From IMG/VR virus record IMGVR_UViG_3300030372_002234, positions 1 through 64,000 of that record: a stretch of DNA of 64,000 nucleotides, one strand, 5' to 3'. Positions 1,731 to 32,106 of this stretch are shown in pieces. Numbering within the stretch: the first letter of the stretch is position 1; each line of letters starts with the position of its first letter. A model generated the notes under the pieces. The model saw only the letters and a list, made by a program, of their open reading frames with translations, was not told the origin of the DNA and ran no database searches. Source of the stretch: a virus (Duplodnaviria > Caudoviricetes). The position numbers were made by a program, and so were the translations under genes.

Positions 1731-2218
1731 GAATTGTGACCGGCATAGGACCGAGAGTCGGTTCTTCTTTTGTAATGAAATCCCTTAGGGATGCGGGTCT
1801 TCCTGTAATAGGCAGGAAATTCTGGGAGTTTACGGCCAAGGACGAAAACCCAGACGGTTATTGGGAACCCCATCCTATTGAAACAAAGAAAAACATTTAT
1901 ACCGATAAATGGAAAAATAAAGTTGTAAAAATTTGGCCTAGCGTGTTGCTAAAAACCCCAGTATATAACATAGATCGTATGGTTGTCTTAGAAAGACAAG
2001 ATAGACAACGACAAGAAGAGAGTGTCACTAGGGTTCACAAGAAAGAACAAGAACTAGTAAGTTATGATTCTCCTTTTAATCCTATCACTGACATTATTGA
2101 TTGGTCTAGGTGGTGTCTATCAAGAGCATTAGAAGAAGCTAACTATCCCATACTTAGGGTGTATACTGAGGATCTTTCTAATAATATAAATAAGATAATT
2201 GAATTTATGGAGAAATAA
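1727..2218 (+). CDS. Sulfotransferase-like (P-loop/PAPS-binding-like) protein
   Basis: N-terminal IVTGIGPRVGSSFVMKSL resembles the GxPRSGTS 5'-PSB loop, and DENPDGYWE resembles the NPxGY(F/Y/W)E motif of small bacterial sulfotransferase-family proteins. Confidence 0.6.
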   Translation: MRIVTGIGPRVGSSFVMKSLRDAGLPVIGRKFWEFTAKDENPDGYWEPHPIETKKNIYTDKWKNKVVKIWPSVLLKTPVYNIDRMVVLERQDRQRQEESVTRVHKKEQELVSYDSPFNPITDIIDWSRWCLSRALEEANYPILRVYTEDLSNNINKIIEFMEK

Positions 2219-2219
2219 T

Positions 2220-2966
2220 ATGGGTGTAGGAATTGCTATGGGAGCCGCCGCTATTGGCATGGGAGTTATGGGTGCTATTAGTGCCAATGACGCAGCGTCA
2301 GCAGAAAATGCGGCAAGAACGGCTCAGTATGTACATCAAACTAGTAGAGAAACTTGGCAATACGGTGAAGCTTCATGGGCTACTGCCCAACAAAACGCAA
2401 ATCGATGGATGCAAAATCAAGTTAATATGGAAGCAGCGGCTAGAAATTATGGTTTAAATCAAATAGCTTTAGCTAAAACTACAGAAGCCAGAAGAAAACA
2501 AATTAGTAGAGCACAAAAAACTCAAACAGCTTCTGTTACTTCTTCATTAAATAGTAAAGTAGGTCTTAACTCAGGTACAGCCGAACGCATTCTTAAACAA
2601 ATGGAATTACAGGGTGCTGAAAATTGGTCTAATGAATTTAAAACAAAACTTAATTCACAAAGACAACTCAAACAACAGTATGATAACAACATTAGACAAG
2701 GTAGTGATTTAGGTTATAATGTACTCGGCCCTTATCAGCCCGGACTTCCGCCTCAAATGCAGAATGTTGGTATGGCTACTATGATGGGTGGTATCCAAGG
2801 AGCCGCTCAGGGTATCCAGATGGTTGGTGGTATCATGGGTGCCATGAACAGTTATCAGCAATGGTCTGCTGGAGGTGCCGGTGGTGGCGGTGATTTAGGA
2901 ACACTAGGTAATGCAGCAGCGTCCGATTCTACAGGCGATGCCTATATGGCAGCAATGGGATTCTAA
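2220..2966 (+). CDS. Internal virion protein B-like (T7 gp14 analogue)
   Basis: GGAG then ATG at 2220; Gly/Ala-rich N-terminus (MGVGIAMGAAAIGMG), Gln-rich helical middle, Gly-rich C-terminus; first of three ejectosome-like genes. Confidence 0.6.
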   Translation: MGVGIAMGAAAIGMGVMGAISANDAASAENAARTAQYVHQTSRETWQYGEASWATAQQNANRWMQNQVNMEAAARNYGLNQIALAKTTEARRKQISRAQKTQTASVTSSLNSKVGLNSGTAERILKQMELQGAENWSNEFKTKLNSQRQLKQQYDNNIRQGSDLGYNVLGPYQPGLPPQMQNVGMATMMGGIQGAAQGIQMVGGIMGAMNSYQQWSAGGAGGGGDLGTLGNAAASDSTGDAYMAAMGF

Positions 2967-2977
2967 GGAGATAAACA

Positions 2978-7552: not shown

Positions 7553-7604
7553 TTTCACTTATTAACATATTCTGTGAGAACAGAAATACAAAGGAAATAT
7601 ATAC

Positions 7605-10600
7605 ATGTCTAATTTTACTGCGAACTCTCAATGGTTTAAAGATTACGTTCAATCAATTGAAATAGCTGAATTTAATAAAGAACGACCTAAAAGAAATTTT
7701 AAAGATTACAGAAAAGAACAAACAATTGCTAGTCGAGTTGAAAACGAACGATTTATGAATGACTTTTCTTCTTTAGTTTCTTTAGTCCCAGAATATGATT
7801 ATACTGATGAATTGGCTGACTCTAAAGAAAACCTTCTTGGAATGTTTAGATTAAATTTCTCAGAACAAACTGAACGTAATGCAGCAAGAGACGCAAAAAG
7901 AGACGAATTAGCTTCTTTAGTTACTGACGAACAAAGAACTGTTTACGATACTACTCAAACTAGTATTATTACAGATTTAAAAGAAGCGACAAAAAACAAT
8001 ACTCCTTTGTGGCAAGTAATGAACCCAGACGATTTTGTGTGGAAAGATACAGGAGAAGCAACTACTAGGTTGTATGATACTACTAACGGTTATTCTATGT
8101 CTCAGTACACTACTTTTACTACTGCGGACACTTATAAAAGTTGGTTTGGAGCAACAAGACGAGTTAAAATGGGCGGAGCGCAAAGACTTCAGCTTAATGA
8201 ATCTCTTGCTGACAGCTTTAGAAAAATTGCAACTGAAGCAAAAATTAGATGGGATTTTGAAGGACCAATTGCTGAAGCAAATGGCCTCACTATTAAACAA
8301 TACATTGATGAAGCTATTGCCGAAAACCCAGATCAGTGGTGGTTTTTTAGAAACATTGGAGATCTCTTTTATACCACAGAACAAGGAAACCAAATTGACG
8401 GTAGAGTAGCACCGTGGAATTCTTCTATGTTGTCTGAACGTCTTTTATCAATGACTGATGAAAACTGGACTAGCGAAGGCGGAGACAGAGATAAGCTTTT
8501 AGCTATTTTTAAAATGGACGAAAATGAGATTGGACCAACTGGTATTATCGAAGGTGACGTTAGGAAGTTTATTGCAGAAAACCCTACTTTAATTGAAGAC
8601 CTTCAAAACTCTAATAACGGATGGCAGTTTATTTCAGCTTTAAATAAACGAAAATCTGAACGTGTTATTGGTAATTATTTAACTGAAAATAATAACAGTT
8701 ATGGTGCTGCTGGTTTTATGAACTTACTGGGGTATGGATTTACAACCGACCCTGCAATAGCCTTAGACATTGCAGCTACTGTTGGTCTTACAATCGCAAC
8801 TGGTGGTGGTTATGTTGGCGTGAGAGCAGCGGCAGGAGTTTTACAAATTGGGTCAAAACTTAAATTTGGACTGTCTATAGCTAAATCAGCTAAAAAAGCA
8901 AAGCACTTTAAAAGAATGGTAAAACGTGCCCACGATGGTAAAACAGTAGGAAGATACAGAGCGGCATCAGCGGTAGGAAAAACCTTACGTGGTATTGGAG
9001 AAGCTACTATGTTTAGTAGAAGACTCTTGCCAACACAGATTGTGTCTGAGCTTTTCTTCCCTAGTCTTAAATTTTTGCGCCATTCAAGAGCTATGAAAAA
9101 AGGTGATGATGCTGCGGATGCCGCAACTTCATGGTGGAAATACTTAAAGAACGAAAATTACTTAGGCGATAGCGTAGGTAGGAGAATGCTGCATAGATCT
9201 ATTGGTGGAGCTATGGAAGGCGTTGTTTGGGGAAGCATTGAATACGGAGTTATGGAAGACTACCAAGATAGAACCAACTCTCTTATTTTTGGTAACGATG
9301 CAGCAGCAGCCTTAGCTTTAGATCGTGACAGGTCAGGAGCTTACGGTCATATGCTTATGTTTGGTGTTGCATTTGGTGGTTTAGGTGGCCCTCTTATTGG
9401 TGAAACCTTCACGCAAGTAGGTAAAATTCCTCAGGGAATGATGATCGGCGGAATGAAAATGAGCCAGTGGGCTGATCAGGTTCTTTCTCCGGGCGGTCAA
9501 GAAGCTATGGGATATGCTAAAGCACCGTTTGCTAAACGGTTTGGTGCTAGAATTGTACAGGGAACCGGAAATGCAGTTACTTGGCTTGGCGGAGGAAACC
9601 AGTATAGCGTAGAACAGCAGTACTTAATGTATAAAGCATTAAGTAAAATTTCTCAAACAGAATTACTTAAGATGGCAGAAGCTGATGATAACGGTGTTGC
9701 TATGACTAAAGTTCTTCAGGATATTGAAGACAGAATTTCTAAATATCAGTGGGCAGCTTCTGAGGCTGGCTTAGACATTAGAGAAGCTTTTAAAAGCGCA
9801 GAAGATGTTATGGATGGTAAACCAGAAAAGGAACGTACTTCCTCGGCGTTTATTAAACAAGTTGAAGATCACTTAGAAGGACAAGAAATTGCAGCTAGAG
9901 GTAAAGCTGGGTTTAGGTCTAGAGTTAGACAAGCCGTATTAGCCGAGTTCCAAGAAAGAATGAGATCAGGACAAGATGTGGGTATTATGGAAAAGGCAAT
10001 GGAAGAAGCTGACCCAAATAACCCGCCATCTGATCCAGAGGTTTCTAATTTAAATAAAACAGTTACAGATATTCAAGAAGAAAGTGCAAAAGTTAGCAAA
10101 GAACGAGAAGCTGTTGTTCAAGAACAAGCCAGAAGAAAAGAAGGATTAGAACCAGATGAACCAGCACGAACCCCAGAACAAATTGAAGGAGAGTTCGCTG
10201 AACAGGTAAAACTTCGAGACGAAGAAACTATTGCTGCTAAAACAGAAGAAAACAATAAAGCTAAGGCAGAGTTAAAAGAGCTTAATAAATCAAAACGTAA
10301 AGGCGTATCTAAAAAACAGTTTAAAAAAGACAATCCTCGTGTTGAAGAATTAGAAACTACCATTAGAGAAACTGATAAATTTCTTGCAGATGCTGAAGAA
10401 GCTAAAAAAGTTTCTATTGAAGAAGCAGAAGCAAAGAAAAATGCAGAGCTTGAAGAAGCTAAAAAAGATCTTCAAAATCTTTCTGATGATGAGTTAACCG
10501 AAAGATTAAACGACTTAGATGTTATTTTAGGTGAAAGACTTTACGAACTTGAGTCAGAAGCATATGCTTACTGGCAGGCTAACCCTGAAAAGTTTGTTAA

Positions 10601-13600
10601 GTATATTGCTTACTTTAGAAAAAAGGTTTTAGAAGAACGTTTAAACGGAGATACTCCTAATGCTAACGGTATGCCTCCAATGTTTGCAGCTATTGATGGC
10701 TTAGAGGTAGACGGTGCTGTTAACATGATTCAACTTTTTGCTCCCGGTACTTATTTTACGAGAGATGAGTTAATTAGAGTTCGCAGGCAGTTAAAAACAG
10801 AAGACCAAAGATTTATTACTGCTGCTCTTGAAGGAAGTCAAGACGGGGAATTTGATCTTACAAAAGCTGAAGCAAGAGCTTTAACAACTAGAATTAAAGA
10901 TATTTTAGTTGAAGAAGCAGTTAACAAAGATTATACTAGTGAAGAAATGCGTTTTATGAACGCTATTATTAATGAGCCTAGTGCCGAAACAATTGAAAAA
11001 GCGTTTGCTTCAACTCGGGTTGAAACCTATGTTAATAACATGATGATTGACGCGGCTAAAAACAATAAGGTTCTTACGGCTGATGATCTTATGTTATACA
11101 ACCAAGATCCTGAATTAGTTATTGAAACGTTTGTAAAGGCTAAACAAGATTTAGCCAAACTTATGGTTGAAGTAAGAGACGGTAATTATACTACTATTCT
11201 TAGAAGTCAAGGTAAGAATGTCTTAGATACTCTTGGTGAAGGAGTCGAGGGATATAAAAAATCAGGAAAAGGTATTACTAACAAATGGAAAGCTGATTTC
11301 TTGGCTAAATACTTTAGCGAAAACGAAGAGTTTACTGCTACTAAGGCTGAGATGTTAGAAGTATTTGAGGTAAACGATGAGTTTGTAGGACCAACTCTTC
11401 AGCAGCCCGCAAGAACCTCAGAACAAATGGATTTAGTCAAAGCCCGTATTAAAGATTTGCTTGAAGACGTTGTTAACCAGCAAGCAGAAAAAATTAAAAT
11501 GTCTGAAGTTAGGGCACGAAGAAAAAGAGCAGGTTACGCAAAACAAAGAGAAAAAACACAGAATGCTTACGCTAAATGGTATGAGTCTAGTACTAAATTA
11601 AGTAATAAGACAAAAGCTGATCAAGATAAAGTTGTTTTCCAGAGAGCGCGTAATAAACTTAAAGAAATGCGTGACTCTATTAACAAAGCGGTTGACGCTG
11701 AGTGGGAGAACGGTACTATCAAAGCTGATTGGATTGCCCGACAAAGCAAACGATTAGATGTACAGTATAGACCAAACTTTGCTCACGCCCGTCCTCTTGT
11801 TAAAGTACTCTCTATGCTTCAGGCTCATTTGTTAGGCACTGCTCGATGGAAGCGTGATTCTCTTAGTGGGTTCTTTGTTGATACAACTATTACTAGAAAA
11901 GATTTAATTTCTATTTTAGAAACTGCTGAAGAGGGTTATGGGTTTATTGCAAACATCGATGAAATTGCTATTGGAGCAAGAGTAGGCGAAGGTTACGACG
12001 GTGAGAAAGTAATTCAGGCTCTTCTTACTAAACTCAAGTCCACTGATCAAACGTTAGGAAACGTACTTAGTGCTGGTTTTGAAAAGAACTTAGGTATTCA
12101 TTTCGGTAAGAAGCTTCCCTACGCTACTGATGTATTTGGATCTAGAGGCGACTTACGAAACCTTATGACTTCTCTAAAGGGTCAGTTAGAAGGAAAGCAA
12201 GCTTATGCTAGAGGTAAAGCAGGAGCAGGAGAATACGCTGGTAATCGAGGAGATGGGAACATTGACGAGGCTACTTGGAATTCATCCTTTAACGAAGAGT
12301 TTATTACTCGTTTAGGTTACATTGCTACAGAAGGTAGTCAAAGAGCTAGAAATCTTCTTGCTGCTTTAGATGGATTAAGTCCTGAAAAACAAATTGCTAC
12401 AGCACTGAAATTTATTAACGAGTTTATTCCTGAAGGACAAAACAAACTAAAATCATTTAGTCAGTTAGGCGGAGGAACAGAAGCAATTGATTGGGTCGGA
12501 CCAAAGAGAGCAGCACAAGCTGTCTTGTCGGCTCTGTCTACTGAACGACCGTATGCAAATAAGGTTGCTGAGTCTTACGTTGTCAAGGGAGAAAGAAACA
12601 GACCAGAACGCGCTAGAAGATTAAGTAATATCGATGAAGACGGTATCTATATTCAGCACGATTCTGATCCTATCATCCAAAGAAACTACGAACGTGCTAC
12701 GGCTGATCACGCAATGAACTGGCTTCTTAAGAAATTAGATAATCCTGATTTAGATGCAGAAGCTAGAAAAGATATTTATAAAAAACTTCAGGCATGGCTC
12801 GAAAATTTCCCTGAACAAGCAGTACTTAATGATGCTGTAAGAGCGGCCCTTCCACAGCAAGGTCTTTCGTTTGTTCCTCGTTGGATGGTAACTGGTCCTG
12901 ATGCTGATATCATCGGTAAAAACTTTGGTACAGGTATTGAAGGACAAATACAGTATAACTTAGCAATGTCAAAGGTTAATACTCCTGCTCTAATGGCTAC
13001 TATTCACGACGCTATTTTTGTTGGTTTGCCGTCTATGATGACTAAATCAGGAGACGTTGCAGCTTCACCTAGTTGGAACTTTAAGGTAGGAGACGATCAT
13101 GTCTTAAGAGGTATTGGATTTGGTTTCCAAACTTTAATTGCTCGTAAAGGTTCTTTTGAAGATGCCTTAAACCATGTTCATCAGATTATGTATGGATACA
13201 AAGGTTTAGTGGAAGAAGCAAGAGCGTCTTATAACACAATGTCACAAAAAAGAGTAGAAGGTTTAACTGGAAAAACTTTTGATACTAACGATGAGTTTGT
13301 GGGTTGGATGGCCCAAGAGTTTCCTAAATTAGATACCGCAAAAAAAGAAGCCATTATTAAAGAACTTTTCCCAGCATTAGCAAGTTCTTATATGGACGCT
13401 GATTCTTCAGGATCAAACATTATGCTTGCTCTTGTGATGGGGCAAGATACTGATTTTGGTAACTTATGGAAAACTATTAAAGAAGCTGATGAAGGTAATA
13501 AGGATGTCTATAACGAAGCGCACAGTGAAGCTGTTATTAACGCTTACAAGCATGTAGAAAGCTATGTACTGGAGCGAATCGAAAAAAGAGATTTTAACGG

Positions 13601-16600
13601 AAAAGCCGGTTTAGAAGAAGTTTATAACGATCTTGGTAAAGTTTTTACAGTACTTAAAGACGAAGGCTTATCTAAAGAAATCCTTAAAAGCCCAGTTATG
13701 ACTGACTCTTACGGAATCGGTGTAGCAAAAATGAAAGAAAGCATTATTGAATCTTTCGGTAAACCTTCTGTTAAAGAAGAATTAATTAAAAGAGGTTTAT
13801 TTACTGAAGAAGACTACGATGCTAAAATTTACCAGTTATCTGATACTTTAGCTACTTTGTTATCTAAAGGTGTTGACTCTAAGTTAGGCGGTTGGATTAA
13901 ACAAAGCTTATTCGCTAAAGGTGGTTTAGACAACAAAAAATTAGGGGAGATTTTAAATAACTGGAGAAGAACTGAAAGCGGACAAAGAGTTAGAACAGGA
14001 GACGAGCAAAGGTCTGTCGCAGATAGTAATAACTTTATGAGCGATATGACAAGCGGCAGTACTACGGCTAACTTTAAAGCTGGTAACTCTGAAGAAATTT
14101 CTATGTTTGATAACATGTTTGACGAGGTTACACGGCAAATTTCAGTGTTAGCTGAGATTACTGGTGATGTTGAATCAGCTAAAGCTCACGTAAACAACTT
14201 AGTTAATTTAATTACTGATGACCTTAAAGGTGATAAAAACGTTGAAAAATTAATGGCTGAAGGTAAGTTTGCTGAAGCTCAGAGAGAAATTGACATTGCT
14301 TTTAATAAAATGTCAGAAGAAAGTGTTATGGTTAAAGCACTGAACAGCTACATGGCTCAGGGTTATGGGTTTGATGAAACAGCCTTTAGAGGACAGCTTG
14401 AAGCTATCTTAGGTAAAGGCAAAGCAGATACAATAAATCAAATCTTAGGTCGTTTAAATCCTCTTGCTAGACAGGCTATGAAGGGCCAGATGTTTAGGCA
14501 GTTAGCTATTTCGGCTGAAACTCGAAACTTTGTTAAAAACAACTTTGATCAAATCGCTGATAAAATTCTTCGACTGCAAGCAGAAGAATCTCCTCTTGGT
14601 CTTGGTAAGCTTGTTATGGAACCGTTGAGCGAAGAAGACATTAGACAGCGTACTATTCTACAGGCCGTTAAAGAACTATCAGAAATTTACGACTTAGAAA
14701 AATTAGAATTAGAAGTTGGTGGCGAAAGATTTAAAAATCTTACTTGGGAAGATTACTTTAAGCAGTGGGAAAAAGATAGCGGAACTGGTTTAGAAATTAG
14801 AGCAGCAGCTATAGATGCGTTTAAAAATGTTCGTTGGAAAGCAATGTTAGATGAAATCGATCAGCGTCTTGCTGAAAACAAAGAATCTAACGACGCTGAA
14901 GTCATGTCTTTAGAGATGCAGAAAGAAGCTATCGAACAAACAATGAAGATGCTTGCTCGTATTATTGATGCTACTAACGAAGGAAGACCTACGGACGCTG
15001 CTAAGAGATTAGAATTAGTTACTGAAAGCCGTAACGTGGTTAATACGGGTAGTATGCCCGGACTCTTAGGCGCACTTCCTCAGACTACTACTCGTAGATT
15101 TGAAGGCGCACCTATTCCAATTCTTAGAATGGCACAGCTTGAACAAACTGCTGAAGTTAAACAGTTAAGATCGTTAGAAAGAGGCGCACAGCAGGCTGAT
15201 ACAACCAAAGCAGTATTCAGTGATGCTGAGTTATCTCGTCCTCTTAGTCCTGAAGATCTTGCTGACGTTCAGACTTACAAGGGATCTATGTATGATGTCC
15301 CCTTAGCTTCTAAGCCTATTTACGGTTTGCAGGATAGTCCATCACCATTTATTGCAGCAGAGTTATTACAAGCTGAATTAACTAACTTTGCTAATCAGGT
15401 AGGGGGAGTAGCTAAAAAATATCTTAGTGAGGGTAATTTCTTTAAACTCTATAATACACATAGGCATTATGTTGCCGCCCAAGAAGCGATGAAAGCTGAT
15501 ACTGTTTATCGTGATATTGCTAAAAGCTTGTCAGAAAAACGTGAACAGCTTCTAAAGGATCGCCCGACATCTGATGCTTTGGATACGGAGTCTTTTCTTA
15601 ATCAGTCGGAAGACTATGTTAATCTTAAGTTAGAATTAGACAAAGCACAAGATAATGCTCTTATGGTTAGAAACGAAGTTTTAGCTATTGATGGATCATG
15701 GGCTAAAGACGTAGAAGAAAGAGCTTGGTCTATTATGTCTATGTCAGGAGAAACGTTAGAAACTGTATCTAACGGAAGAACTTGGGGAGAAGCCGTTAAT
15801 AAAACGGCATTAGATAACCAACGATCTGGTAACATGATTGCATGGTTAGCCCCTCCTGCTAAAACTCCGGGTGAGGTAATTCTTGATGGTAGTAATACTG
15901 CAAAACTTCGTTATGAAGATAAATCAGAAACAGCTATGTTACCGCGTTCTGCACACTCTGTAGATGCATCGGCTGGTTTGTACATGAGTAACTATATTCA
16001 AGTTACTGGTTGGTTTGAAGGACTTAAAAGCATCCTTAAAAGAGAGCCTACTAGTAGAGAGATTACTGTTTTTGCTCGATGGGCAGACGCTAAAGCACGT
16101 TTTGATGTTGATGAACAGAATAAACTTTTATCTAATTTTGGAAAAGAAATTGCTCCCTATAAAGATTTAACTGAAAAACAATTAACAGATATTATGGGTA
16201 GGGGGCAGGATATTGCTGCTCAAAACTTTAGAGACGCTAACAACGCAATAGCCTATATGGCTAAACCCGTAATTAGAGAACAAGTTAAAGAATCCCTCAA
16301 AGCCCAACTTGGAGATGATTTTGAAGCTAAAGTTGCAGAAAGAACCGGCGGGTTAACTCTTGAAGAATTAATGAATTTTAAACGAAAGTTAACTGACGAG
16401 AACACTACAATCTTTGTAAACCCCTTGGGAGTTGTTATTGCTCCTCACAAGGTAGTTGGAGATGGTATTGTTAATCTGACTATGCAAGAAAGAGTTTTAG
16501 CTTTACAGGGAATTCAAAATCAAACTGTTGTTGATCGCATGAGACTAGCTACAATGTTTGATAGAAAACTTCCTATGAACTCAGAGCTTTCATCTCGAAT

Positions 16601-19600
16601 GGGTGGATACGATCCGTTTACTAAGTTTAATGGAATGACTATTGATAAAGCCAGAAGGAACGCTGCTGTATTAACCGATGCCTTAGAAGTTTTACAGGGA
16701 AGAAGATCTACAGAAAAACTCAGTGTTGCTATTGATAGACGTAACGTTGTTAGAAGAGGTACTTTAACTGAAGCTCCCATGAAGTTTGTTAAATTTTCTA
16801 ATGAAATAAACGAAGAAGGAGCTAAAGACGCTAGGATGTTGTTAGCAGAAAATACTTTAGAAATGCTTCCTTTATCTGAAGACTCATTAAAGAAAATTAA
16901 TGCTCTTAGAAATACTTTTGATCCTTACGACGAAGCTGACTGGGCTAACGGTATTCAAGTTGCTATGATGGTTAGTAAAGACTCCGCTTATAACGTGTTT
17001 AAACAAAGAGTATTAGCTGAAGAAAGACTTTCAGCTAGGTCTAGAGATTCTAACCCAGACGAGTTTAATAAACAGTTTGATGCACGGTGGGAAAAAGTTA
17101 AACCAATTGTTGACGAGTTAAGAAATGAATTAAATATTCTTAATAGAGATAGCGACGTTGTTTCTAATTTCTTAAACAGAAACGATGTCTTCTTTGGTGA
17201 AACAGCTATTGATTCTACTACCCATGAAACTTTTAACAGTCTGTATTCTCAGAAAATTAAGATTGAGCAAGCTGTTCAAATGGAATTATTGAATAGAACT
17301 CTTGTTCCTGATAACACTTCGTTTGACCGAGAAGTTCAGTTTATTAAACCAATGGCTGATCTAAATGGTATTATCCCTAGATCTGACGGTACTCAACTTA
17401 AGCCTAACACTATTGATGCTCGTATTCAGGATTACCCAAAAACAGACGGTCACTTGATGTTAACGCATCGTTTAGATACGTTTGTTAATACTGGTATTTT
17501 AAATAAAGATCAAGCGTCTGTTCTTAAATTAGCTTTTTGGAATTATGATACTGAAGCATTAGGTAAGATTTTTGACCCAATGAAAACAGATAGTCCTTTA
17601 CGATTTGATGTTCTTGATGGTGTCGATTATATGGGTAAATACGAACAACTTAATAAAGCATTTACAGATGGAGTTGTACACAGAATTGGGCTTCTAAGAA
17701 ATATGTCAAGTAAATTTGATGATCCTAGTTCTTTAGGTCCGGCTGCTGTTGTTCTTGAAGAAATTGGACATGCTCTGGGTCATAAATTAGATTCTGATAC
17801 TCAGATTAACTTTATTGAACGTGTTAAGAAAATTGAGATGGCTACAATTGAAGAAGCTGAAAAACTTCTTTATGGCGAAGGTGGTCCAAAGAATAAAAAA
17901 CGTCTTGAACAATTAAGAGAAGATTTTAGACGTATTAAAGATATGGAAATTCCAGAAAACGCTGCCAAACGTACTGAGTTGTTTGGTGCTATGTTTGCTC
18001 TTAGTGGCTTACATAAAGCTAAAAATCAGTGGGATACTATTACTGACGGTGCTGCAACACAGACCGCTTTGTCTGACGCTCACTCTATTATTAAAAGTCT
18101 TGGTAAATTAGCTGATATTTCTGGCGTTGATGCTGATACCTTAAACGGTAAAAGCTTATTTACTGGTGTTGAAGAAACAATAAGATCTTCTATTAACTTA
18201 GACGTTAGATTAAACAAAAGATCTCAGCCAACAGATGAAAACCGTTTAGACGAAAACCACGGGCCTCGACATGTTGATGTTGATGTTGCAAAACGAAACG
18301 AAGACATTAGAAGAGCTAAGGTTGAAAAAGAAACTGACGATCTTATTGAACAAATCAGAGATCCAAGAACAGGTCAAGTTGATATTTCTCTTCTCGGTAA
18401 CGCTGACAAAATGAGTGTTACTGTAAGAGATACGATTATTCTTCGTGTTATGGAAGACCACGTTAAACGATCTACTTCAGGATCAAGAGTTGATACGCCT
18501 TTTTCTTCTTACCTGTCTGCAATGGCCTTTGGTAAATTAACTCCTAATCAAGTAGCTAGATACGGTGAGCTATTGTCTAGCCCGTTTGGTATGAGGCAGT
18601 TTGCTTTTGCTACTGATGGTGAAATTCCGTTAACTGCCGCAGTTGAGCATTTGTTTAACGGTGCTGATTCTCAAAGTTACTTTACTACTGGTGCTTTCCA
18701 AGACGCTATGCCTACAATTCAAGGATTGGGTCTATACTTAAGAGGTGAGTTTGAGAAAGTTATCCCAGCACTTGCTCTTCTTAAAGGACAAAACATGACC
18801 AAAGGACCGCTTGGACCTACCGGAGGAGAAACTACTCCGTGGTCCTTGTACTCTACTTTGTGGCGTGAAATGGTTATGGACTATCAAGGTAAAGATAGAG
18901 CTAAAGAAGTATTAGTAAACAAGCTTAAATCAATGAAAGATAACGATCCTGATTTTGTTAAATTCTTAGGAAACAAAAAGAAATCAGATGAGTTTTTAGA
19001 TATTATGGCTGACACTGCTGATTCTTGGGCTAATCCAAAAGAAGGTTTGTGGGCAAGTATTGTAGATTCTATGGTTCAGGCTGGAATGGTTAAAGAATCT
19101 AAACGAAACGATTTAATTGCTAATGCTGCTTATCCCATTAAGTTTAAGGACAGTATCTTTAAAAATATGACGGATATTGACGGCGATACTCCTAGAAGAG
19201 AACTTAGAAGAGCTATGGTAGACATAGTTAGAGGAAGGATGGAACACTCCGAAGATGTCGATATTGATATTCTTCAAATCGCATTAGCTGACGTATTACC
19301 AAGCCCGTCTGAAAGAAGAGGCAAGAATCTTGAAACGTATATTAACAATCTTCCTAACGAAATTCAAGCTTTATTAAAAACTCCTGAAATTAAAGGTAAC
19401 ATTGATGTGTTACTCGGGAAAATTAGAAGGGGAGACATTACTCTTAAAGATTTAGGAGATGACGTAAGAACTAGGTATATGGATACTCTTAAAAGCGATG
19501 ATTTAGTTGGTAACGAAGATCCTCGTAAAAAAGCAATGCTTCTTGAGTTGTCTGAAGAGTTTAGAAATAAATTAGCTAAATCTCAAAAGACCTCTACTTT

Positions 19601-21764
19601 AGACTTACAGCCTACAACGGCTGCTGAGTTTGTGGCTAATCGTTATATGAATAACATTGGTTCATCCAGTTATTCGTTTGCTGGTGATGCTTTCTTATCC
19701 CCTAAACAACTTTGGGAAGACCCACGTATTGCTAAGTTCTTAGAAGATGATCCTATTTCTCTTTTAGATTCTGTTAAACGAGGTACTGCTGCTCAAGCTT
19801 TCGATAGAGCTACTTACAGTAATTACTTTGGTATTAAAGGTTTTGGAATGAAAGATCTTATTGAGCTTTACAAAAAAGCGGCTAATGGCGAAAACACTCA
19901 CCATGAGTTTAATATGATGTTTATGACTAAAGATATGACTTTAGATGAGCATAAACGAACAATGACTCACGATGAGCGTCAGAAGTTTAAAGCGGGTATT
20001 GATCACATTGACAGCATGTACAAATACTCAGTAGGTACTTTATCTACTCTTGATAACCCTCATGCTGCTCCTTTCTTAAGTATTATTAACGTTATTAGTG
20101 AGTTAGGTACAGCTTTATCTATCGCCCCTCGTCTTGCTATTGCAACGGCTATCGAAGAAACGCCTATGTCTATCGGCAGCGTTCTTAAAGATAACTTGTT
20201 GGGAGCTAAGAGAGAAATGCAAGATGTTCTCGCTATAGCTAAAAGCACTAAAGATATTCATGAAACCTTAGAGGGTTTAGGCCATATTACATCTTCTGTT
20301 ATGCACCAAGCAGCAGCCCTTGCGGCTAAAATGGGTGATGACGGTTCAGGATCATACGGCGTTACAGATAAAAAGAAAATTAAACAAATCTACAAATTCT
20401 TGTCTACTGGTATGAACAAACAGGTTATGGCAGCACGAAGTTTAGGTGCCATGCAGTACGTTCATAGATTAGATAGTATTTTCTCTAATATTGCGGGAGA
20501 TATCTCAATTAAAGCAGAAGATACAGCTAGAGGCAAGAGCATGTCGTTTATGCGTCAAGGCACTGGAGGTTTCCACGTTAACGCAGATGAAATTTACTTA
20601 AGATTACAAGAACAATTTGACGGTGACTTTACTAATATCACTTTAGATGAATTTAAGAAAACAACTAAAGAATTAGGAATTGATGAAGAAATTTCAAGAG
20701 ATATTTTAGAGGCTGTTAAAATGGGCTTGTTTGAAGAAGACAAATACCAGTTCTTTAGAAACATGTGGGTTGAAAATCGTGAGCAAATTTTAAGAACGGG
20801 AGTTCCTTTTGATAAATTACGATTAAAAATTACGGCTGATTACGATCAACACGTAAGAGCAGGTAAAGATGGAGATGCTGTGCGAACTAGAAAACTACAA
20901 GCTTTGAACGCTATTAGAGAGCTTGTGTTTACTGCTTCCACTAAGTTTGCTAAACAGCCCTCATTAAGTACTCAGCCTTTAGGGGCTAGAAACGCTGGTG
21001 TGTTGGCTACCTTCTTTACACGCCTTACAACCTATGCTTCGTCTTCTGCTAATACCTTAAGAAGAGCTATGTTTGTTGGTCCGTCTACGTTTGCTGCTGC
21101 CTTTACTGCTCACATGATTACGGGATGGTTATACTATAAGCTTATTCAGCTTCAGGGTTTCCGTACTATCGAAGAAATGAAGAGAGAATTACAAAAAGAC
21201 CCAATGGGTGAATTAACTGATGCTGTAATGTCTGTTCCGTTCCTTGGAGCTAACCAAATGGTTATCAGTATGCTTCTTCAGATGATGCGCGGAGAACGAC
21301 CTGTGAACTCCAAGCCTTACGATATTGCTGCTCTTAATGCGGCTAACACTCTCTTACAGTTACCCGTAAGAGTTACAAAAGCTGTTCAAGATATTATTAA
21401 CGGTGATTGGGAAAAAGGAACGGCTAACCTTGCCCAAAGAATGCCTGTTCCCCATGCGTGGGCCTTAGCTATTGCTTTAAGAAATGCCGGAGCATTTGAA
21501 AAGGACGTTCAAATTGGTAGGCTTAGTCCTAAGTATAGAGGACAACTTAAACCACAGCCTATCCAACCTCCTGCTAGATCTGAAGTTACTAAGAACCCAA
21601 TTAATACATCTGTATTAGAACCTCAGGTTGAAGTAGGTAAACCTCAGGTAACTCCTGAGCATACCAACCCAGAGACAGGTATGACAACTCCTTCATCTGT
21701 AGAAGAAGACAGAGTTGGAGAACTTTTAAAAGAATTAGAAAGTAAAGGGTTTGAACCAGTGTAA
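7605..21764 (+). CDS. Giant internal virion protein D-like (gp16 analogue), 4719 aa, with an embedded T7-type RNA polymerase-like segment and a zincin-like motif
   Basis: Single ORF with AAAGGA RBS; hydrophobic Gly-rich segments near aa 380-420; motif A-like DADSSG (D1931), motif B-like KSPVMTDSYG (K2028/Y2036); EEIGH motif near nt 17760. Confidence 0.7.
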   Translation: MSNFTANSQWFKDYVQSIEIAEFNKERPKRNFKDYRKEQTIASRVENERFMNDFSSLVSLVPEYDYTDELADSKENLLGMFRLNFSEQTERNAARDAKRDELASLVTDEQRTVYDTTQTSIITDLKEATKNNTPLWQVMNPDDFVWKDTGEATTRLYDTTNGYSMSQYTTFTTADTYKSWFGATRRVKMGGAQRLQLNESLADSFRKIATEAKIRWDFEGPIAEANGLTIKQYIDEAIAENPDQWWFFRNIGDLFYTTEQGNQIDGRVAPWNSSMLSERLLSMTDENWTSEGGDRDKLLAIFKMDENEIGPTGIIEGDVRKFIAENPTLIEDLQNSNNGWQFISALNKRKSERVIGNYLTENNNSYGAAGFMNLLGYGFTTDPAIALDIAATVGLTIATGGGYVGVRAAAGVLQIGSKLKFGLSIAKSAKKAKHFKRMVKRAHDGKTVGRYRAASAVGKTLRGIGEATMFSRRLLPTQIVSELFFPSLKFLRHSRAMKKGDDAADAATSWWKYLKNENYLGDSVGRRMLHRSIGGAMEGVVWGSIEYGVMEDYQDRTNSLIFGNDAAAALALDRDRSGAYGHMLMFGVAFGGLGGPLIGETFTQVGKIPQGMMIGGMKMSQWADQVLSPGGQEAMGYAKAPFAKRFGARIVQGTGNAVTWLGGGNQYSVEQQYLMYKALSKISQTELLKMAEADDNGVAMTKVLQDIEDRISKYQWAASEAGLDIREAFKSAEDVMDGKPEKERTSSAFIKQVEDHLEGQEIAARGKAGFRSRVRQAVLAEFQERMRSGQDVGIMEKAMEEADPNNPPSDPEVSNLNKTVTDIQEESAKVSKEREAVVQEQARRKEGLEPDEPARTPEQIEGEFAEQVKLRDEETIAAKTEENNKAKAELKELNKSKRKGVSKKQFKKDNPRVEELETTIRETDKFLADAEEAKKVSIEEAEAKKNAELEEAKKDLQNLSDDELTERLNDLDVILGERLYELESEAYAYWQANPEKFVKYIAYFRKKVLEERLNGDTPNANGMPPMFAAIDGLEVDGAVNMIQLFAPGTYFTRDELIRVRRQLKTEDQRFITAALEGSQDGEFDLTKAEARALTTRIKDILVEEAVNKDYTSEEMRFMNAIINEPSAETIEKAFASTRVETYVNNMMIDAAKNNKVLTADDLMLYNQDPELVIETFVKAKQDLAKLMVEVRDGNYTTILRSQGKNVLDTLGEGVEGYKKSGKGITNKWKADFLAKYFSENEEFTATKAEMLEVFEVNDEFVGPTLQQPARTSEQMDLVKARIKDLLEDVVNQQAEKIKMSEVRARRKRAGYAKQREKTQNAYAKWYESSTKLSNKTKADQDKVVFQRARNKLKEMRDSINKAVDAEWENGTIKADWIARQSKRLDVQYRPNFAHARPLVKVLSMLQAHLLGTARWKRDSLSGFFVDTTITRKDLISILETAEEGYGFIANIDEIAIGARVGEGYDGEKVIQALLTKLKSTDQTLGNVLSAGFEKNLGIHFGKKLPYATDVFGSRGDLRNLMTSLKGQLEGKQAYARGKAGAGEYAGNRGDGNIDEATWNSSFNEEFITRLGYIATEGSQRARNLLAALDGLSPEKQIATALKFINEFIPEGQNKLKSFSQLGGGTEAIDWVGPKRAAQAVLSALSTERPYANKVAESYVVKGERNRPERARRLSNIDEDGIYIQHDSDPIIQRNYERATADHAMNWLLKKLDNPDLDAEARKDIYKKLQAWLENFPEQAVLNDAVRAALPQQGLSFVPRWMVTGPDADIIGKNFGTGIEGQIQYNLAMSKVNTPALMATIHDAIFVGLPSMMTKSGDVAASPSWNFKVGDDHVLRGIGFGFQTLIARKGSFEDALNHVHQIMYGYKGLVEEARASYNTMSQKRVEGLTGKTFDTNDEFVGWMAQEFPKLDTAKKEAIIKELFPALASSYMDADSSGSNIMLALVMGQDTDFGNLWKTIKEADEGNKDVYNEAHSEAVINAYKHVESYVLERIEKRDFNGKAGLEEVYNDLGKVFTVLKDEGLSKEILKSPVMTDSYGIGVAKMKESIIESFGKPSVKEELIKRGLFTEEDYDAKIYQLSDTLATLLSKGVDSKLGGWIKQSLFAKGGLDNKKLGEILNNWRRTESGQRVRTGDEQRSVADSNNFMSDMTSGSTTANFKAGNSEEISMFDNMFDEVTRQISVLAEITGDVESAKAHVNNLVNLITDDLKGDKNVEKLMAEGKFAEAQREIDIAFNKMSEESVMVKALNSYMAQGYGFDETAFRGQLEAILGKGKADTINQILGRLNPLARQAMKGQMFRQLAISAETRNFVKNNFDQIADKILRLQAEESPLGLGKLVMEPLSEEDIRQRTILQAVKELSEIYDLEKLELEVGGERFKNLTWEDYFKQWEKDSGTGLEIRAAAIDAFKNVRWKAMLDEIDQRLAENKESNDAEVMSLEMQKEAIEQTMKMLARIIDATNEGRPTDAAKRLELVTESRNVVNTGSMPGLLGALPQTTTRRFEGAPIPILRMAQLEQTAEVKQLRSLERGAQQADTTKAVFSDAELSRPLSPEDLADVQTYKGSMYDVPLASKPIYGLQDSPSPFIAAELLQAELTNFANQVGGVAKKYLSEGNFFKLYNTHRHYVAAQEAMKADTVYRDIAKSLSEKREQLLKDRPTSDALDTESFLNQSEDYVNLKLELDKAQDNALMVRNEVLAIDGSWAKDVEERAWSIMSMSGETLETVSNGRTWGEAVNKTALDNQRSGNMIAWLAPPAKTPGEVILDGSNTAKLRYEDKSETAMLPRSAHSVDASAGLYMSNYIQVTGWFEGLKSILKREPTSREITVFARWADAKARFDVDEQNKLLSNFGKEIAPYKDLTEKQLTDIMGRGQDIAAQNFRDANNAIAYMAKPVIREQVKESLKAQLGDDFEAKVAERTGGLTLEELMNFKRKLTDENTTIFVNPLGVVIAPHKVVGDGIVNLTMQERVLALQGIQNQTVVDRMRLATMFDRKLPMNSELSSRMGGYDPFTKFNGMTIDKARRNAAVLTDALEVLQGRRSTEKLSVAIDRRNVVRRGTLTEAPMKFVKFSNEINEEGAKDARMLLAENTLEMLPLSEDSLKKINALRNTFDPYDEADWANGIQVAMMVSKDSAYNVFKQRVLAEERLSARSRDSNPDEFNKQFDARWEKVKPIVDELRNELNILNRDSDVVSNFLNRNDVFFGETAIDSTTHETFNSLYSQKIKIEQAVQMELLNRTLVPDNTSFDREVQFIKPMADLNGIIPRSDGTQLKPNTIDARIQDYPKTDGHLMLTHRLDTFVNTGILNKDQASVLKLAFWNYDTEALGKIFDPMKTDSPLRFDVLDGVDYMGKYEQLNKAFTDGVVHRIGLLRNMSSKFDDPSSLGPAAVVLEEIGHALGHKLDSDTQINFIERVKKIEMATIEEAEKLLYGEGGPKNKKRLEQLREDFRRIKDMEIPENAAKRTELFGAMFALSGLHKAKNQWDTITDGAATQTALSDAHSIIKSLGKLADISGVDADTLNGKSLFTGVEETIRSSINLDVRLNKRSQPTDENRLDENHGPRHVDVDVAKRNEDIRRAKVEKETDDLIEQIRDPRTGQVDISLLGNADKMSVTVRDTIILRVMEDHVKRSTSGSRVDTPFSSYLSAMAFGKLTPNQVARYGELLSSPFGMRQFAFATDGEIPLTAAVEHLFNGADSQSYFTTGAFQDAMPTIQGLGLYLRGEFEKVIPALALLKGQNMTKGPLGPTGGETTPWSLYSTLWREMVMDYQGKDRAKEVLVNKLKSMKDNDPDFVKFLGNKKKSDEFLDIMADTADSWANPKEGLWASIVDSMVQAGMVKESKRNDLIANAAYPIKFKDSIFKNMTDIDGDTPRRELRRAMVDIVRGRMEHSEDVDIDILQIALADVLPSPSERRGKNLETYINNLPNEIQALLKTPEIKGNIDVLLGKIRRGDITLKDLGDDVRTRYMDTLKSDDLVGNEDPRKKAMLLELSEEFRNKLAKSQKTSTLDLQPTTAAEFVANRYMNNIGSSSYSFAGDAFLSPKQLWEDPRIAKFLEDDPISLLDSVKRGTAAQAFDRATYSNYFGIKGFGMKDLIELYKKAANGENTHHEFNMMFMTKDMTLDEHKRTMTHDERQKFKAGIDHIDSMYKYSVGTLSTLDNPHAAPFLSIINVISELGTALSIAPRLAIATAIEETPMSIGSVLKDNLLGAKREMQDVLAIAKSTKDIHETLEGLGHITSSVMHQAAALAAKMGDDGSGSYGVTDKKKIKQIYKFLSTGMNKQVMAARSLGAMQYVHRLDSIFSNIAGDISIKAEDTARGKSMSFMRQGTGGFHVNADEIYLRLQEQFDGDFTNITLDEFKKTTKELGIDEEISRDILEAVKMGLFEEDKYQFFRNMWVENREQILRTGVPFDKLRLKITADYDQHVRAGKDGDAVRTRKLQALNAIRELVFTASTKFAKQPSLSTQPLGARNAGVLATFFTRLTTYASSSANTLRRAMFVGPSTFAAAFTAHMITGWLYYKLIQLQGFRTIEEMKRELQKDPMGELTDAVMSVPFLGANQMVISMLLQMMRGERPVNSKPYDIAALNAANTLLQLPVRVTKAVQDIINGDWEKGTANLAQRMPVPHAWALAIALRNAGAFEKDVQIGRLSPKYRGQLKPQPIQPPARSEVTKNPINTSVLEPQVEVGKPQVTPEHTNPETGMTTPSSVEEDRVGELLKELESKGFEPV

Positions 21765-26500: not shown

Positions 26501-26501
26501 A

Positions 26502-31911: not shown

Positions 31912-32106
31912 ATGTACGGTAAAGGCGATAAATACAGAGACGTTGATAAGAAAAAGTACGATGAACAGTATGAAAAGATTTTTGGAAAGAAAAAATTTAA
32001 CATCATGAGTGACAAGGAGTCCAATGACAGTATGGGAAACGTACACAAAAGAAGAAAAGACAAGGCTAACAAATCTTCAGTTAGCAAACGAAGACAAAGC
32101 CGCTAA
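31912..32106 (+). CDS. Small basic hypothetical protein (GKGDKYR…YEKIFG type)
   Basis: AGAAAGGAG RBS; the C-terminal part overlaps the RNAP gene start. Confidence 0.55.
   Translation: MYGKGDKYRDVDKKKYDEQYEKIFGKKKFNIMSDKESNDSMGNVHKRRKDKANKSSVSKRRQSR

What the first reader, a model, noticed from the sequence alone, without database searches (positions are those of the whole stretch)
13380..13720. Second, T7-type RNA polymerase core inside the giant ejection protein (candidate virion RNAP)
Seen: YMDADSSGSNIMLAL (D1931), then NKDVYNEA, then SKEILKSPVMTDSYGIG (K2028-x7-Y2036-G). Known: T7 RNAP has motif A DGSCSGIQH (D537), then QDIY, then motif B K631-RSVMTLA-Y639-G; the A-to-B spacing is 94 aa in T7 and 97 aa here. 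This phage's own RNAP has KRTVMCDPYG, sharing the unusual VMxDxYG pattern, which hints at duplication from the same lineage. Known: N4-like phages inject a ~3500-aa virion RNAP. I am not aware of this in T7-like phages that also keep a complete stand-alone RNAP. Inference: an injected polymerase could transcribe the early cluster and pull in DNA before the stand-alone RNAP gene, about 10 kb downstream, is expressed. Caveat: no clear DxxGR motif or correctly placed motif C was found, so it may be a catalytically dead scaffold.
Basis: partly seen in the sequence, partly recalled or inferred. Interest (0 to 1): 0.9.

Follow-up and report, generated by a model that had tools for sequence, protein, structure and literature searches.

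The report
RNA-polymerase-like module in giant ejection protein
A 4,719-residue, cysteine-free protein of an uncultured marine T7-type phage carries a very diverged but real T7/N4-type RNA polymerase module, so this phage probably injects its own polymerase as phage N4 does while also encoding a normal T7-type polymerase; whether the module is active is not shown.

Summary
The ORF at 7605-21764 (4,719 aa) contains YMDADSSGSN (D1931, D1933) and K2024-x3-K2028-SPVMTDS-Y2036-G at the stated coordinates. These residues are invariant in 11-20 homologues, down to about 21% identity.

The motif A-to-B stretch is homologous to single-subunit RNA polymerases:
- Profile-profile E 2.4e-6 (89%) against T7-like RNAPs, and 1.4e-3 against N4-like vRNAPs, in the correct register.
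- Pfam RNA_pol gives a sub-threshold hit on the own genome (17.9 bits).

The conserved equivalent of T7 DIY571 is NAY1981.

No canonical motif C or T/DxxGR was found. The only motif-C-like element is an invariant "TIHDA" (D1802), 129 residues upstream of motif A. The palm did not fold with confidence.

The protein and all 12 homologues checked have no cysteine, like N4 vRNAP and T7 gp15/gp16. It lies in a gp14/15/16-like cluster, which supports ejection.

My best reading is an N4-style injected polymerase module. Activity is unproven, and a catalytically dead scaffold remains a serious rival. Duplication from the phage's own RNAP is not supported. I class it as a new variant of a known kind.

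The scan had also flagged this same stretch from an overlapping window, as a possibly permuted polymerase core.

The parts
7605..21764 (+). Giant ORF, 4,719 aa (P0001), cysteine-free; candidate gp16-type ejection protein carrying the polymerase-like module
   Evidence: Open frame. 0 Cys in it and in 12 homologues of 1,636-4,714 aa. Homologues lie at the same position after TerL in all related contigs.
11742..15164 (+). Conserved central domain, aa 1380-2520, the polymerase-like module (size and position comparable to N4 mini-vRNAP)
   Evidence: Block of conservation bounded by a poorly conserved Lys/Glu-rich linker. A profile search of 1.8 billion representatives finds only 14 proteins. The language-model search's nearest clusters are PF00940 and N4 vRNAP families, score 0.90.
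12984..13016 (+). 'PALMATIHDAI' element, aa 1794-1804; H1801 and D1802 invariant; the only motif-C-like site (hydrophobic run, then H/F-D-A/S)
   Evidence: Invariant in 11-20 sequences. It is the only recurrent match to a motif-C-type pattern in the full-length proteins. A local hhalign hit 'sTIHD/smIHD' to T7-like motif C was equalled by 1 of 60 column shuffles. The fragment P0016 has VFDSV here.
13107..13145 (+). 'RGIGFGFQTLIAR' element, aa 1835-1847 (G1836, G1840, A1846 invariant); role unknown
13389..13430 (+). Motif A, aa 1929-1942, YMDADSSGSNIMLA. D1931 aligns to T7 D537 in the T7-like profile alignment. D1933 aligns to N4 D559 in the N4-like alignment. Both are invariant.
   Evidence: hhalign; invariance.
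13539..13547 (+). N-A-Y1981, the equivalent of T7 D-I-Y571 and N4 D-L-Y612
   Evidence: Aligned by hhalign and hmmsearch. Y1981 is invariant.
13674..13721 (+). Motif B / O-helix, aa 2024-2039, K-EIL-K-SPVMTDS-Y-G. K2024 corresponds to T7 R627, K2028 to K631, and Y2036 to Y639.
   Evidence: hhalign. phrog_414 E 0.011. Pfam PF00940 17.9 bits, E 2.8e-5, on nt 13521-13796 in the own-genome search. VIA-align top hits are T7 RNAP residues 569-690 and human mitochondrial RNAP residues 954-1044.
14547..14573 (+). 'DQIADKILR', aa 2315-2323. [D/E]2319 and invariant R2323 have the D-x3-R spacing of T/DxxGR, but lie downstream of motif B. This is only a speculative candidate.
   Evidence: Conservation table. 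No alignment support.
15165..21761 (+). C-terminal 2,200 aa. No detectable similarity to the N4 gp50 C-terminal domain. Contains hydrophobic segments and an invariant EE-x-GH (aa 3385-3389) plus E3458.
   Evidence: hhalign grid. Invariant list. The language-model search's nearest clusters are phage hypothetical proteins, some with LPD38/LPD39 polyvalent-protein domains.
1727..7552 (+). Three upstream genes (163, 255 and 1,524 aa) that with the giant gene form a gp13/14/15/16-like series. The 255-aa and 1,524-aa proteins are cysteine-free.
   Evidence: T7 gp15 and gp16 are also cysteine-free. No Pfam or PHROG hits.
32009..34588 (+). Complete stand-alone T7-type RNAP (859 aa) with DFRGR, motif A, motif B and HD motif C
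   Evidence: PF00940 E 6.5e-64 and phrog_414 E 2.4e-142. Invariant motifs in alignment A5.

Best explanation
The 4,719-aa protein is the largest internal virion (ejection) protein of an uncultured marine T7-supergroup podophage. A strongly diverged single-subunit (T7/N4-type) RNA polymerase module is embedded at aa ~1380-2520.

Proposed mechanism, by analogy with phage N4 gp50:
1. The cysteine-free protein is packaged in the capsid.
2. It is threaded unfolded through the tail and periplasm at infection.
3. It refolds in the cytoplasm.
4. Its polymerase module transcribes the early cluster that starts about 100 nt downstream of its own gene, up to the stand-alone RNAP gene 10 kb further on. This helps draw the DNA in and makes early expression independent of host RNAP.
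5. The stand-alone T7-type RNAP then takes over.

Shown here: homology of the motif A-to-motif B part to single-subunit RNAPs, invariance of the NTP-binding and metal-binding residues, absence of cysteine, synteny, and co-occurrence with a full RNAP.

Inferred, not shown: packaging and ejection, catalytic activity, and the choice of template.

The second catalytic carboxylate is not at the canonical place. The best candidates are invariant D1802 (upstream 'IHDA') and invariant D1933.
For: Homology of the A-B region:
- hhalign gives 89% and E 2.4e-6 over 113 columns against T7-like RNAPs, with A, DIY and B in register.
- Against N4-like vRNAPs it gives E 1.4e-3 over 144 columns, covering D559 to Y678.
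- The positive control, N4-like versus T7-like, gives 91.7% and E 8e-7.
- An HMM of the slice scores dozens of real single-subunit RNAPs at 11-24 bits, against at most 4.7 bits for reversed sequences.
- Pfam RNA_pol hits nt 13521-13796 at E 2.8e-5 in the own-genome search. phrog_414 gives E 0.011.
- The family profile reaches P0016, a fragment with a borderline PF00940 hit, at E 7.6e-4 across 1.8 billion proteins.

Fold:
- In two independent AlphaFold runs, the best two of 48,161 PDB chains are human mitochondrial RNAP and T7 RNAP fingers.

Language-model search: the nearest clusters are PF00940 and N4 vRNAP families.

Conservation: D1802, D1931, D1933, G1936, Y1981, K2028, M2032 and Y2036 are invariant, and position 2024 is K or R in 8 of the 9 central-domain sequences.

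Ejection protein:
- 0 Cys in more than 50,000 residues across 13 homologues.
- The phage's cytoplasmic enzymes carry 1.6-2.5% Cys.
- Six N4-like vRNAPs and T7 gp15/gp16 are also Cys-free.
- The gene order TerL-163-255-1524-giant is fixed in the relatives whose contigs cover it; the most distant subgroup keeps it with one small gene instead of two.

A stand-alone RNAP is present here, in a 99%-complete relative, and in L004.
Against: - No canonical motif C (HD or FD downstream of motif B) and no T/DxxGR was found by alignment or pattern search.
- Outside the A-B stretch, nothing aligns to T7-like or N4-like polymerases.
- Pfam-A and PHROGs give no above-threshold hit to the protein. HMM searches of PDB sequences find nothing.
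- The palm region was predicted with pLDDT below 50, and as helix rather than hairpin, so the active-site geometry is untested.
- Foldseek found nothing significant.
- The N- and C-terminal parts show no similarity to N4 gp50.
- There is no virion proteomics, and no promoter class for such an enzyme was identified. The repeated early-region elements I first took for promoters are pistol ribozymes.
Confidence: 0.5

Rival explanations
1. Polymerase-derived but catalytically dead. The module descends from a single-subunit RNAP, has lost motif C and T/DxxGR, and now serves the ejection protein as a DNA- or nucleotide-binding clamp or as a structural scaffold, for example holding or ratcheting the leading DNA end as T7 gp16 is proposed to do.
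For: No canonical motif C or T/DxxGR. The position that would follow a pre-motif-C helix carries GFGF without an acid. Only about 115-145 residues are alignable. The phage has a complete RNAP of its own, and also a protein with a sigma-70 region 4.
Against: The residues that only matter for catalysis and NTP binding are invariant across lineages that share about 21% identity: the two motif A aspartates, K2028, Y2036 and a basic residue at -4. So is a third aspartate in a motif-C-like context. Pseudo-enzymes usually lose such residues.
Confidence: 0.3
2. An active polymerase module in a giant protein that is not packaged or injected. It would act in the cytoplasm late in infection, for example as a replication or transcription factory component.
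For: There is no direct evidence for virion location. No sequence similarity to T7 gp16 or to the N4 gp50 terminal domains was detected.
Against: Complete absence of cysteine in all homologues, shared with N4 vRNAPs and T7 gp15/gp16 but not with the phage's cytoplasmic enzymes. The gene lies at the end of the structural/packaging operon, next to two other cysteine-free proteins.
Confidence: 0.1
3. Chance resemblance. The motifs are short and the protein is huge, so the region may have nothing to do with polymerases.
For: Standard searches (Pfam on the protein, PHROGs, PDB HMM, Foldseek) give no significant hit.
Against: Several measures that are partly independent of one another agree on the same register: profile-profile E 2.4e-6; real-versus-reversed HMM scores; a Pfam own-genome hit; top-two structural matches in two models; language-model neighbours; and invariance of exactly the catalytic positions.
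Confidence: 0.05

Closest known systems
Phage N4 gp50 virion RNA polymerase (Schitoviridae; mini-vRNAP, Kazmierczak et al. 2002; full-length cryo-EM, PMC13492108)
   Same: Both are giant (3,500 vs 4,719 aa) cysteine-free proteins with a roughly 1,100-aa polymerase module in the middle. Both have an acidic pair in motif A (N4 E557-A-D559, here D1931-A-D1933) and motif B K-x-P-x-x-x-x-x-Y-G. In both, the phage also encodes a second T7-type RNAP (N4 RNAP II).
   Different: Only the DLY-to-motif-B or A-to-B stretch aligns (E 1.4e-3 to 8e-3). No TxxGR and no motif C lie at the N4 positions. The N4 hallmark ExDGxxxG (PMC10654107) is not matched. The N- and C-terminal domains show no similarity. The genome is T7-like, with all genes on one strand and a full-length single-chain RNAP, not N4-like.
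T7 RNA polymerase family (Pfam PF00940), including this phage's own 859-aa RNAP
   Same: Motif A D-x4-G-x-[QN], the DIY-type tyrosine, and motif B [RK]-x3-K-x2-VMT-x2-YG align in register. The fingers fold matches T7 residues 569-690.
   Different: Below the Pfam threshold (17.9 vs 22 bits). DxxGR and downstream HD are absent. The module is embedded in a 4,719-aa protein. Identity is about 16% over 113 columns.
T7 gp16 / IVP-D-type internal virion (ejection) proteins, which can host cytoplasm-directed domains (Hardies et al. 2016, PMC4819975)
   Same: It is the largest of a series of adjacent genes of rising size. It is mostly helical and cysteine-free, like T7 gp15/gp16. The principle of an IVP carrying an enzyme domain is the one described for N4 gp50 and H66 gp60.
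   Different: No sequence similarity to any IVP family was detected. The cluster lies after the terminase gene rather than between the tail tube and the fibre. It is 3.6 times the size of gp16.
Polyvalent proteins of phages and conjugative elements (Iyer et al. 2017, PMC5512222)
   Same: A very large multidomain protein, delivered with the DNA, that carries an enzymatic module. N4-RNAP-like modules are one listed type. For the C-terminal part, the language-model search returned as secondary neighbours, listed only after 30 closer clusters with no Pfam family, two clusters in which a share of members carry LPD38 (63%) or LPD39 (28%).
   Different: No LPD, MuF, ART or peptidase domain reaches significance in Pfam. 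Membership is only a lead.
Permuted (C-A-B) palm of birnavirus/permutotetravirus RNA-dependent RNA polymerases (Gorbalenya et al. 2002; recalled from my own knowledge, not checked here)
   Same: A motif-C-like element sits upstream of motif A.
   Different: That is a different polymerase superfamily. The assignment here rests on a 5-residue match and on conservation only.

Membership tests
Single-subunit T7-like RNAP (PF00940) | Motif A catalytic Asp in D-G-S-x-x-G-x-Q context | tested here: met
   D1931..G1936..N1938 aligns to the T7-like D..G..Q. It is invariant.
Single-subunit T7-like RNAP (PF00940) | Motif B [RK]-x3-K-x7-Y-G on the O-helix | tested here: met
Single-subunit T7-like RNAP (PF00940) | Motif C (H-D) downstream of motif B | tested here: not met
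   No acidic residue is invariant in the central domain downstream of motif B (to aa 2520); the next one, D2702, is not in a motif-C-like context. No motif-C-type pattern occurs downstream. The only motif-C-like site is D1802, upstream of motif A.
Single-subunit T7-like RNAP (PF00940) | T/DxxGR motif about 115-135 residues upstream of motif A | tested here: not met
   That position holds 'TIHDA'. hhalign of this region against the DxxGR/TxxGR slices scores at or below the shuffle mean.
Single-subunit T7-like RNAP (PF00940) | Pfam gathering score (22 bits) | tested here: not met
   No hit at E<=1 for the whole protein. 17.9 bits in the six-frame own-genome search.
Single-subunit T7-like RNAP (PF00940) | Right-hand palm fold with the carboxylates facing the O-helix | tested here: inconclusive
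   The palm segments have pLDDT below 50 in both models.
N4-like virion RNAP (Schitoviridae gp50) | Hallmark motif ExDGxxxG | tested here: not met
   The sequence is DADSSGSN. The acidic pair is kept, the glycines are not (motif from PMC10654107).
N4-like virion RNAP (Schitoviridae gp50) | Homologous N-terminal (injection) and C-terminal (encapsidation) domains | tested here: inconclusive
   An 18-cell hhalign grid gives E>=0.043 everywhere except pol versus pol, which gives 0.0066. Such domains diverge quickly.
N4-like virion RNAP (Schitoviridae gp50) | Cysteine-free giant polypeptide | tested here: met
   0 Cys in 13 homologues and in 6 N4-like vRNAPs.
N4-like virion RNAP (Schitoviridae gp50) | Packaged in the virion and injected; transcribes early genes from hairpin promoters | not testable with these tools
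   No isolate and no proteome. No hairpin-promoter family was found. The repeated early elements are pistol ribozymes.
T7 gp16-type internal virion protein | Member of the gp13-16 gene series; large, helical, cysteine-free | tested here: met
   Gene series of 163, 255, 1,524 and 4,719 aa. Cys counts parallel T7 gp14/15/16. The models are mostly helical.
T7 gp16-type internal virion protein | Sequence similarity to the IVP-D family | tested here: inconclusive
   No PHROG or Pfam hit. No dedicated IVP-D profile comparison was made.

The most novel reading that the evidence does not exclude
This is a second lineage of injected virion RNA polymerases, distinct from Schitoviridae, living in T7-type phages. 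Its active site is rearranged: the motif-C-type aspartate (D1802, 'IHDA') lies upstream of motif A (order C-A-B). That would be the first permuted palm in the T7 RNAP / Pol I-like polymerase superfamily.
Probability: 0.2. Interest if true: 0.85.

Novelty: new variant of a known kind. Interest (0 to 1): 0.72.

Why it matters
Injected virion RNA polymerases are so far the defining oddity of N4-like phages. Finding a polymerase module in the ejection protein of a T7-type phage, which also has the classical stand-alone RNAP, has three consequences.
- Host-independent early transcription by an injected enzyme would have arisen, or been kept, more than once among podophages.
- It links the T7 'gp16 pulls the DNA in' model and the N4 'vRNAP pulls the DNA in' model within one genome architecture.
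- It offers a very diverged single-subunit polymerase, with unusual motif order, for enzymology and for tool development.

The family occurs in Tara Oceans and other ocean metagenomes. No cultured representative was found in a search of 50,697 deposited phage genomes.

Tried and rejected
- **Early-region repeats as vRNAP promoters.** I first read the conserved repeats at 23317-23380, 24522-24585 and ~25936, which recur almost unchanged (the core differs by at most one base) in related phages, as candidate vRNAP promoters. Rfam shows the first two are pistol ribozymes (RF02679, 65.4 and 49.2 bits). Idea rejected.
- **T7/SP6-like promoter string.** TAGGGATCACTATAGATA at 21830-21847 is single-copy in the window. 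No promoter family could be defined.
- **Standard database searches.** Pfam and PHROGs on the whole protein and on pieces gave no significant hit except phrog_414 at E 0.011. phmmer and hmmsearch against PDB sequences found nothing.
- **Searches for relatives.** tblastn of the domain against 50,697 phage genomes gave no match. A word-based search for fragments of 598-2,058 aa found none.
- **AlphaFold.** With 4 sequences the mean pLDDT was 38. With 20 sequences it was 52. The palm was not resolved.
- **Foldseek.** The PDB and BFVD libraries gave no match at E<=0.001.
- **Downstream motif C candidates.**
  - 'PRSAHSVDAS' (aa 2780-2789) resembles T7 PNFVHSQDGS. Only a D-S pair survives family-wide, and with a one-column slip.
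  - 'VFARWAD2828' is conserved only among the four close homologues.
  - 'AIDGS' (aa 2694-2698) is conserved only among the four close homologues.
  - All three rejected.
- **hhalign of the N- and C-terminal parts against N4 gp50.** No signal.
- **Same-lineage duplication from the phage's own RNAP.** Not supported.

Full report
**What is there.** The window is positions 1-64,000 of a 72,875-bp virus record that CheckV rates 100% complete. All large genes are on the + strand. The gene order, is:
- TerL (36-1730)
- three proteins of 163, 255 and 1,524 aa
- a 4,719-aa ORF (7605-21764)
- a cluster of small early genes with ThyX, DUF932 and three tRNAs
- a complete 859-aa T7-type RNAP (32009-34588)
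- a 191-aa protein with a sigma-70 region 4 hit
- primase/helicase, DNA polymerase, ribonucleotide reductase
- portal, scaffold, capsid, tail tube A, a 1,804-aa nozzle, and fibre-like proteins

The portal and RNAP are only 25-35% identical to those of cultured autographivirids, mainly Ralstonia phages. This is a deep, uncultured marine branch of the T7 supergroup. The homologues come from Tara Oceans and other ocean metagenomes.

The giant protein has few relatives. Only 4 turned up in a word-based search of 5.8 billion proteins. An exhaustive profile search of 1.8 billion cluster representatives found 14, and 4 + 8 contig loci were found in IMG/VR and JGI metagenomes.

In alignments of the central domains of 9, 13 and 20 homologues, and of 11 full-length proteins, identity falls to about 21%. 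Only 87 of 4,719 positions are invariant. They include H1801, D1802, G1836, G1840, D1931, A1932, D1933, G1936, Y1981, K2028, M2032 and Y2036. Position 2024 is K or R in 8 of the 9 central-domain sequences. So the putative catalytic and NTP-binding residues are exactly those that selection has kept.

The tyrosine that aligns with T7 Y571 and N4 Y612 is Y1981, in 'INAYKHV'.

**Is it a polymerase core?** Simple searches fail:
- Pfam and PHROGs on the protein gave nothing.
- HMM searches of PDB sequences gave nothing.
- BLASTP against the phage's own RNAP gave only a 30-residue motif B match at E 0.085.

More sensitive tests agree with one another:
- *Profile-profile, T7-like.* The 13-sequence domain profile against a 31-sequence T7-like RNAP profile gives 61.6% and E 7.7e-5 over 113 columns. 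These run from motif A through the DIY tyrosine to motif B, in register. Restricting the query to aa ~1909-2099 gives 89% and E 2.4e-6.
- *Profile-profile, N4-like.* Against a 9-sequence N4-like mini-vRNAP profile the same slice gives E 1.4e-3 over 144 columns, D559 through Y678.
- *Positive control.* N4-like against T7-like gives 91.7% and E 8e-7. The new family is therefore somewhat further from both than they are from each other.
- *HMM of the A-B slice.* It scores real single-subunit RNAPs at 11-24 bits, and an N4-like vRNAP at 13.4 bits. Reversed sequences reach at most 4.7 bits.
- *Pfam on the own genome.* The RNA_pol model hits nt 13521-13796 at 17.9 bits, E 2.8e-5. That is the only match besides the stand-alone RNAP.
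- *P0016.* The family profile reaches this 402-aa fragment from a 1.2-kb contig, which has a borderline PF00940 hit. It shows the same order of elements (VFDSV ... TFGFG ... IDANGSG ... KNPVMTIPY), so it is a further, more distant member.
- *Language-model search.* The nearest clusters are PF00940 families and N4 vRNAP families at 0.89-0.90. This is a lead, not proof.
- *Structure.* Both AlphaFold models are poor overall (pLDDT 38 and 52). The motif B region reaches pLDDT 70-79.
  - In both models an exhaustive alignment to 48,161 PDB chains ranks human mitochondrial RNAP and T7 RNAP first and second.
  - T7 residues 569-690 lie on aa 1978-2099, the same register as the sequence alignments.

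I conclude with about 85-90% confidence that aa ~1920-2100 descend from a single-subunit RNAP.

**What is missing or odd.** In the central domain no acidic residue is invariant downstream of motif B (to aa 2520); the next one, D2702, is not in a motif-C-like context. No motif-C-type pattern recurs downstream, and T/DxxGR is absent from its expected place.

About 129 residues upstream of motif A, where T7 and N4 have T/DxxGR, the family has an invariant 'P-A-x-M-x-T-[IV]-H-D-A'. This is a hydrophobic run followed by HD, which is the look of motif C (T7 LIHDSF, N4 KIFDGM); P0016 has VFDSV at that point.
- A targeted hhalign of this segment against the C-terminal palm of T7-like RNAPs picks 'sTIHD/smIHD'. 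The score was equalled by 1 of 60 column shuffles.
- Against the DxxGR/TxxGR slices it scores at or below the shuffle mean.
- That is suggestive only. It is a 5-residue match, and both models draw the segment as a low-confidence helix.

Motif A also carries a second invariant Asp, D1933. The T7-like alignment puts D1931 on T7 D537. The N4-like alignment puts D1931 on E557 and D1933 on D559. The acidic pair resembles the N4 'E-x-D'.

A downstream 'D-K-x-L-R' (aa 2319-2323; R invariant) has the D-x3-R spacing of DxxGR but no alignment support.

The active site may therefore be complete but rearranged, or it may be incomplete.

**Is the protein injected?** There is no direct evidence, but three indirect lines point the same way.
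- *Cysteine.* It has no cysteine in 4,719 residues. Neither do any of the 12 homologues examined, more than 50,000 residues in all.
  - The phage's cytoplasmic enzymes have 1.6-2.5% Cys, and its fibre-like protein has 4.7%.
  - N4 vRNAP and five other Schitoviridae vRNAPs are likewise cysteine-free, a property noted in the literature as needed for passage (PMC3821669).
  - In T7 the two large ejection proteins gp15 and gp16 have 0 Cys, while gp13 has 3 and gp14 has 1.
  - In the window the 255-aa and 1,524-aa neighbours are also cysteine-free.
- *Gene series.* The series of 163, 255, 1,524 and 4,719 aa mirrors T7 gp13-16. It is conserved in the relatives whose contigs cover it, always after TerL; the most distant subgroup has one small gene instead of two.
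- *Precedent.* N4 gp50 is an IVP-D homologue carrying a polymerase (Hardies et al., PMC4819975). Polyvalent proteins with N4-RNAP-like modules have been catalogued (PMC5512222).

Against orthology with gp50: the N- and C-terminal parts show no similarity to those of N4-like vRNAPs.

**Mechanism proposed.** The protein is packaged and ejected through the tail, and refolds in the cytoplasm. Its polymerase module then transcribes the early cluster, which begins about 100 nt after its own stop codon and runs 10 kb to the stand-alone RNAP gene. That RNAP, and possibly the sigma-like protein, then take over.

The early transcript appears to be processed by two pistol ribozymes, so it is made as a long RNA. 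In the more distant subgroup, 0.7-1.1 kb with no called gene follows the giant gene. This fits a genome end or promoter region there, but the termini were not mapped.

None of these steps is shown. I put about 0.5 on an active injected polymerase and 0.3 on a polymerase-derived inactive module. About 0.1 goes to a protein that is not injected, and about 0.05 to chance.

**Comparison and novelty.**
- It works, on this reading, like N4 vRNAP. It is not a member of that family by the tests applied: ExDGxxxG is not met and no terminal-domain homology was detected.
- It is related to PF00940 polymerases but fails the Pfam threshold, and two of the four signature motifs are not at their places.
- Five literature searches found no description of a virion-type polymerase module in a T7-type phage with a full stand-alone RNAP.
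- N4 itself shows that a phage can combine a vRNAP with a T7-like RNAP II.

I therefore class it as a new variant of a known kind. If the C-A-B arrangement proves real, it has a distinctly novel active-site topology.

Noticed in passing
window 23317-23395 and 24522-24572 (a related element near 25920-25960): Two pistol ribozymes (Rfam RF02679, 65.4 and 49.2 bits; gathering score 34.5) sit right after early-gene stop codons. Over the ~45-nt core, copies in related phages L001 and L002 are identical or differ by one base, although the giant protein of L001 is only 44-46% identical to the window's. A third similar element is not called by Rfam.
   Followed up: partly
window 31036-31108, 31733-31806, 31811-31895: Three tRNA genes lie just upstream of the stand-alone RNAP gene (Rfam 72.0, 72.4 and 56.2 bits).
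   Followed up: no
window 35135-35710: A 191-aa protein 550 nt downstream of the T7-type RNAP has a sigma-70 region 4 hit (PF04545, E 6.8e-6, above threshold). It may be a third transcription component.
   Followed up: partly
window 17751-17783 (aa 3383-3393) and aa 3458: An invariant E3385-E3386-x-G3388-H3389 ('VLEEIGHALGH') plus an invariant E3458 lie in the C-terminal part of the giant protein. They look like a variant zincin/metallopeptidase site, as predicted for N4-RNAP-like polyvalent proteins. There is no Pfam hit.
   Followed up: no
window 21830-21847: TAGGGATCACTATAGATA closely resembles SP6/K11-type phage promoters. It lies between the giant gene and a 68-aa hydrophobic ORF (21863-22069). 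It is single-copy in the window, and 'ACTATAG' is conserved in three of the four relatives aligned (L002, L003, L004; not L001).
   Followed up: partly
window 59554-63999: An open-ended protein of more than 1,482 aa after the fibre-like gene has 4.7% cysteine (70 Cys), the opposite extreme from the cysteine-free ejection proteins.
   Followed up: no
window 51763-57177: The nozzle (tail tube B) protein is 1,804 aa. Only its last ~500 residues match the nozzle family (PF25675, phrog_457), and internal DNA repeats occur at 53181-53880. This suggests a large repetitive N-terminal extension.
   Followed up: no
window 24001-28000 vs 4001-20000: The early region has 50% GC, against 36-39% in the giant gene and its neighbour.
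   Followed up: no
L037 (1,208-bp contig, protein P0016): This fragment of a still more distant member of the giant-protein family has FD instead of HD, and 'IDANGSG' as motif A. It bridges the family to PF00940 (22.1 bits).
   Followed up: partly
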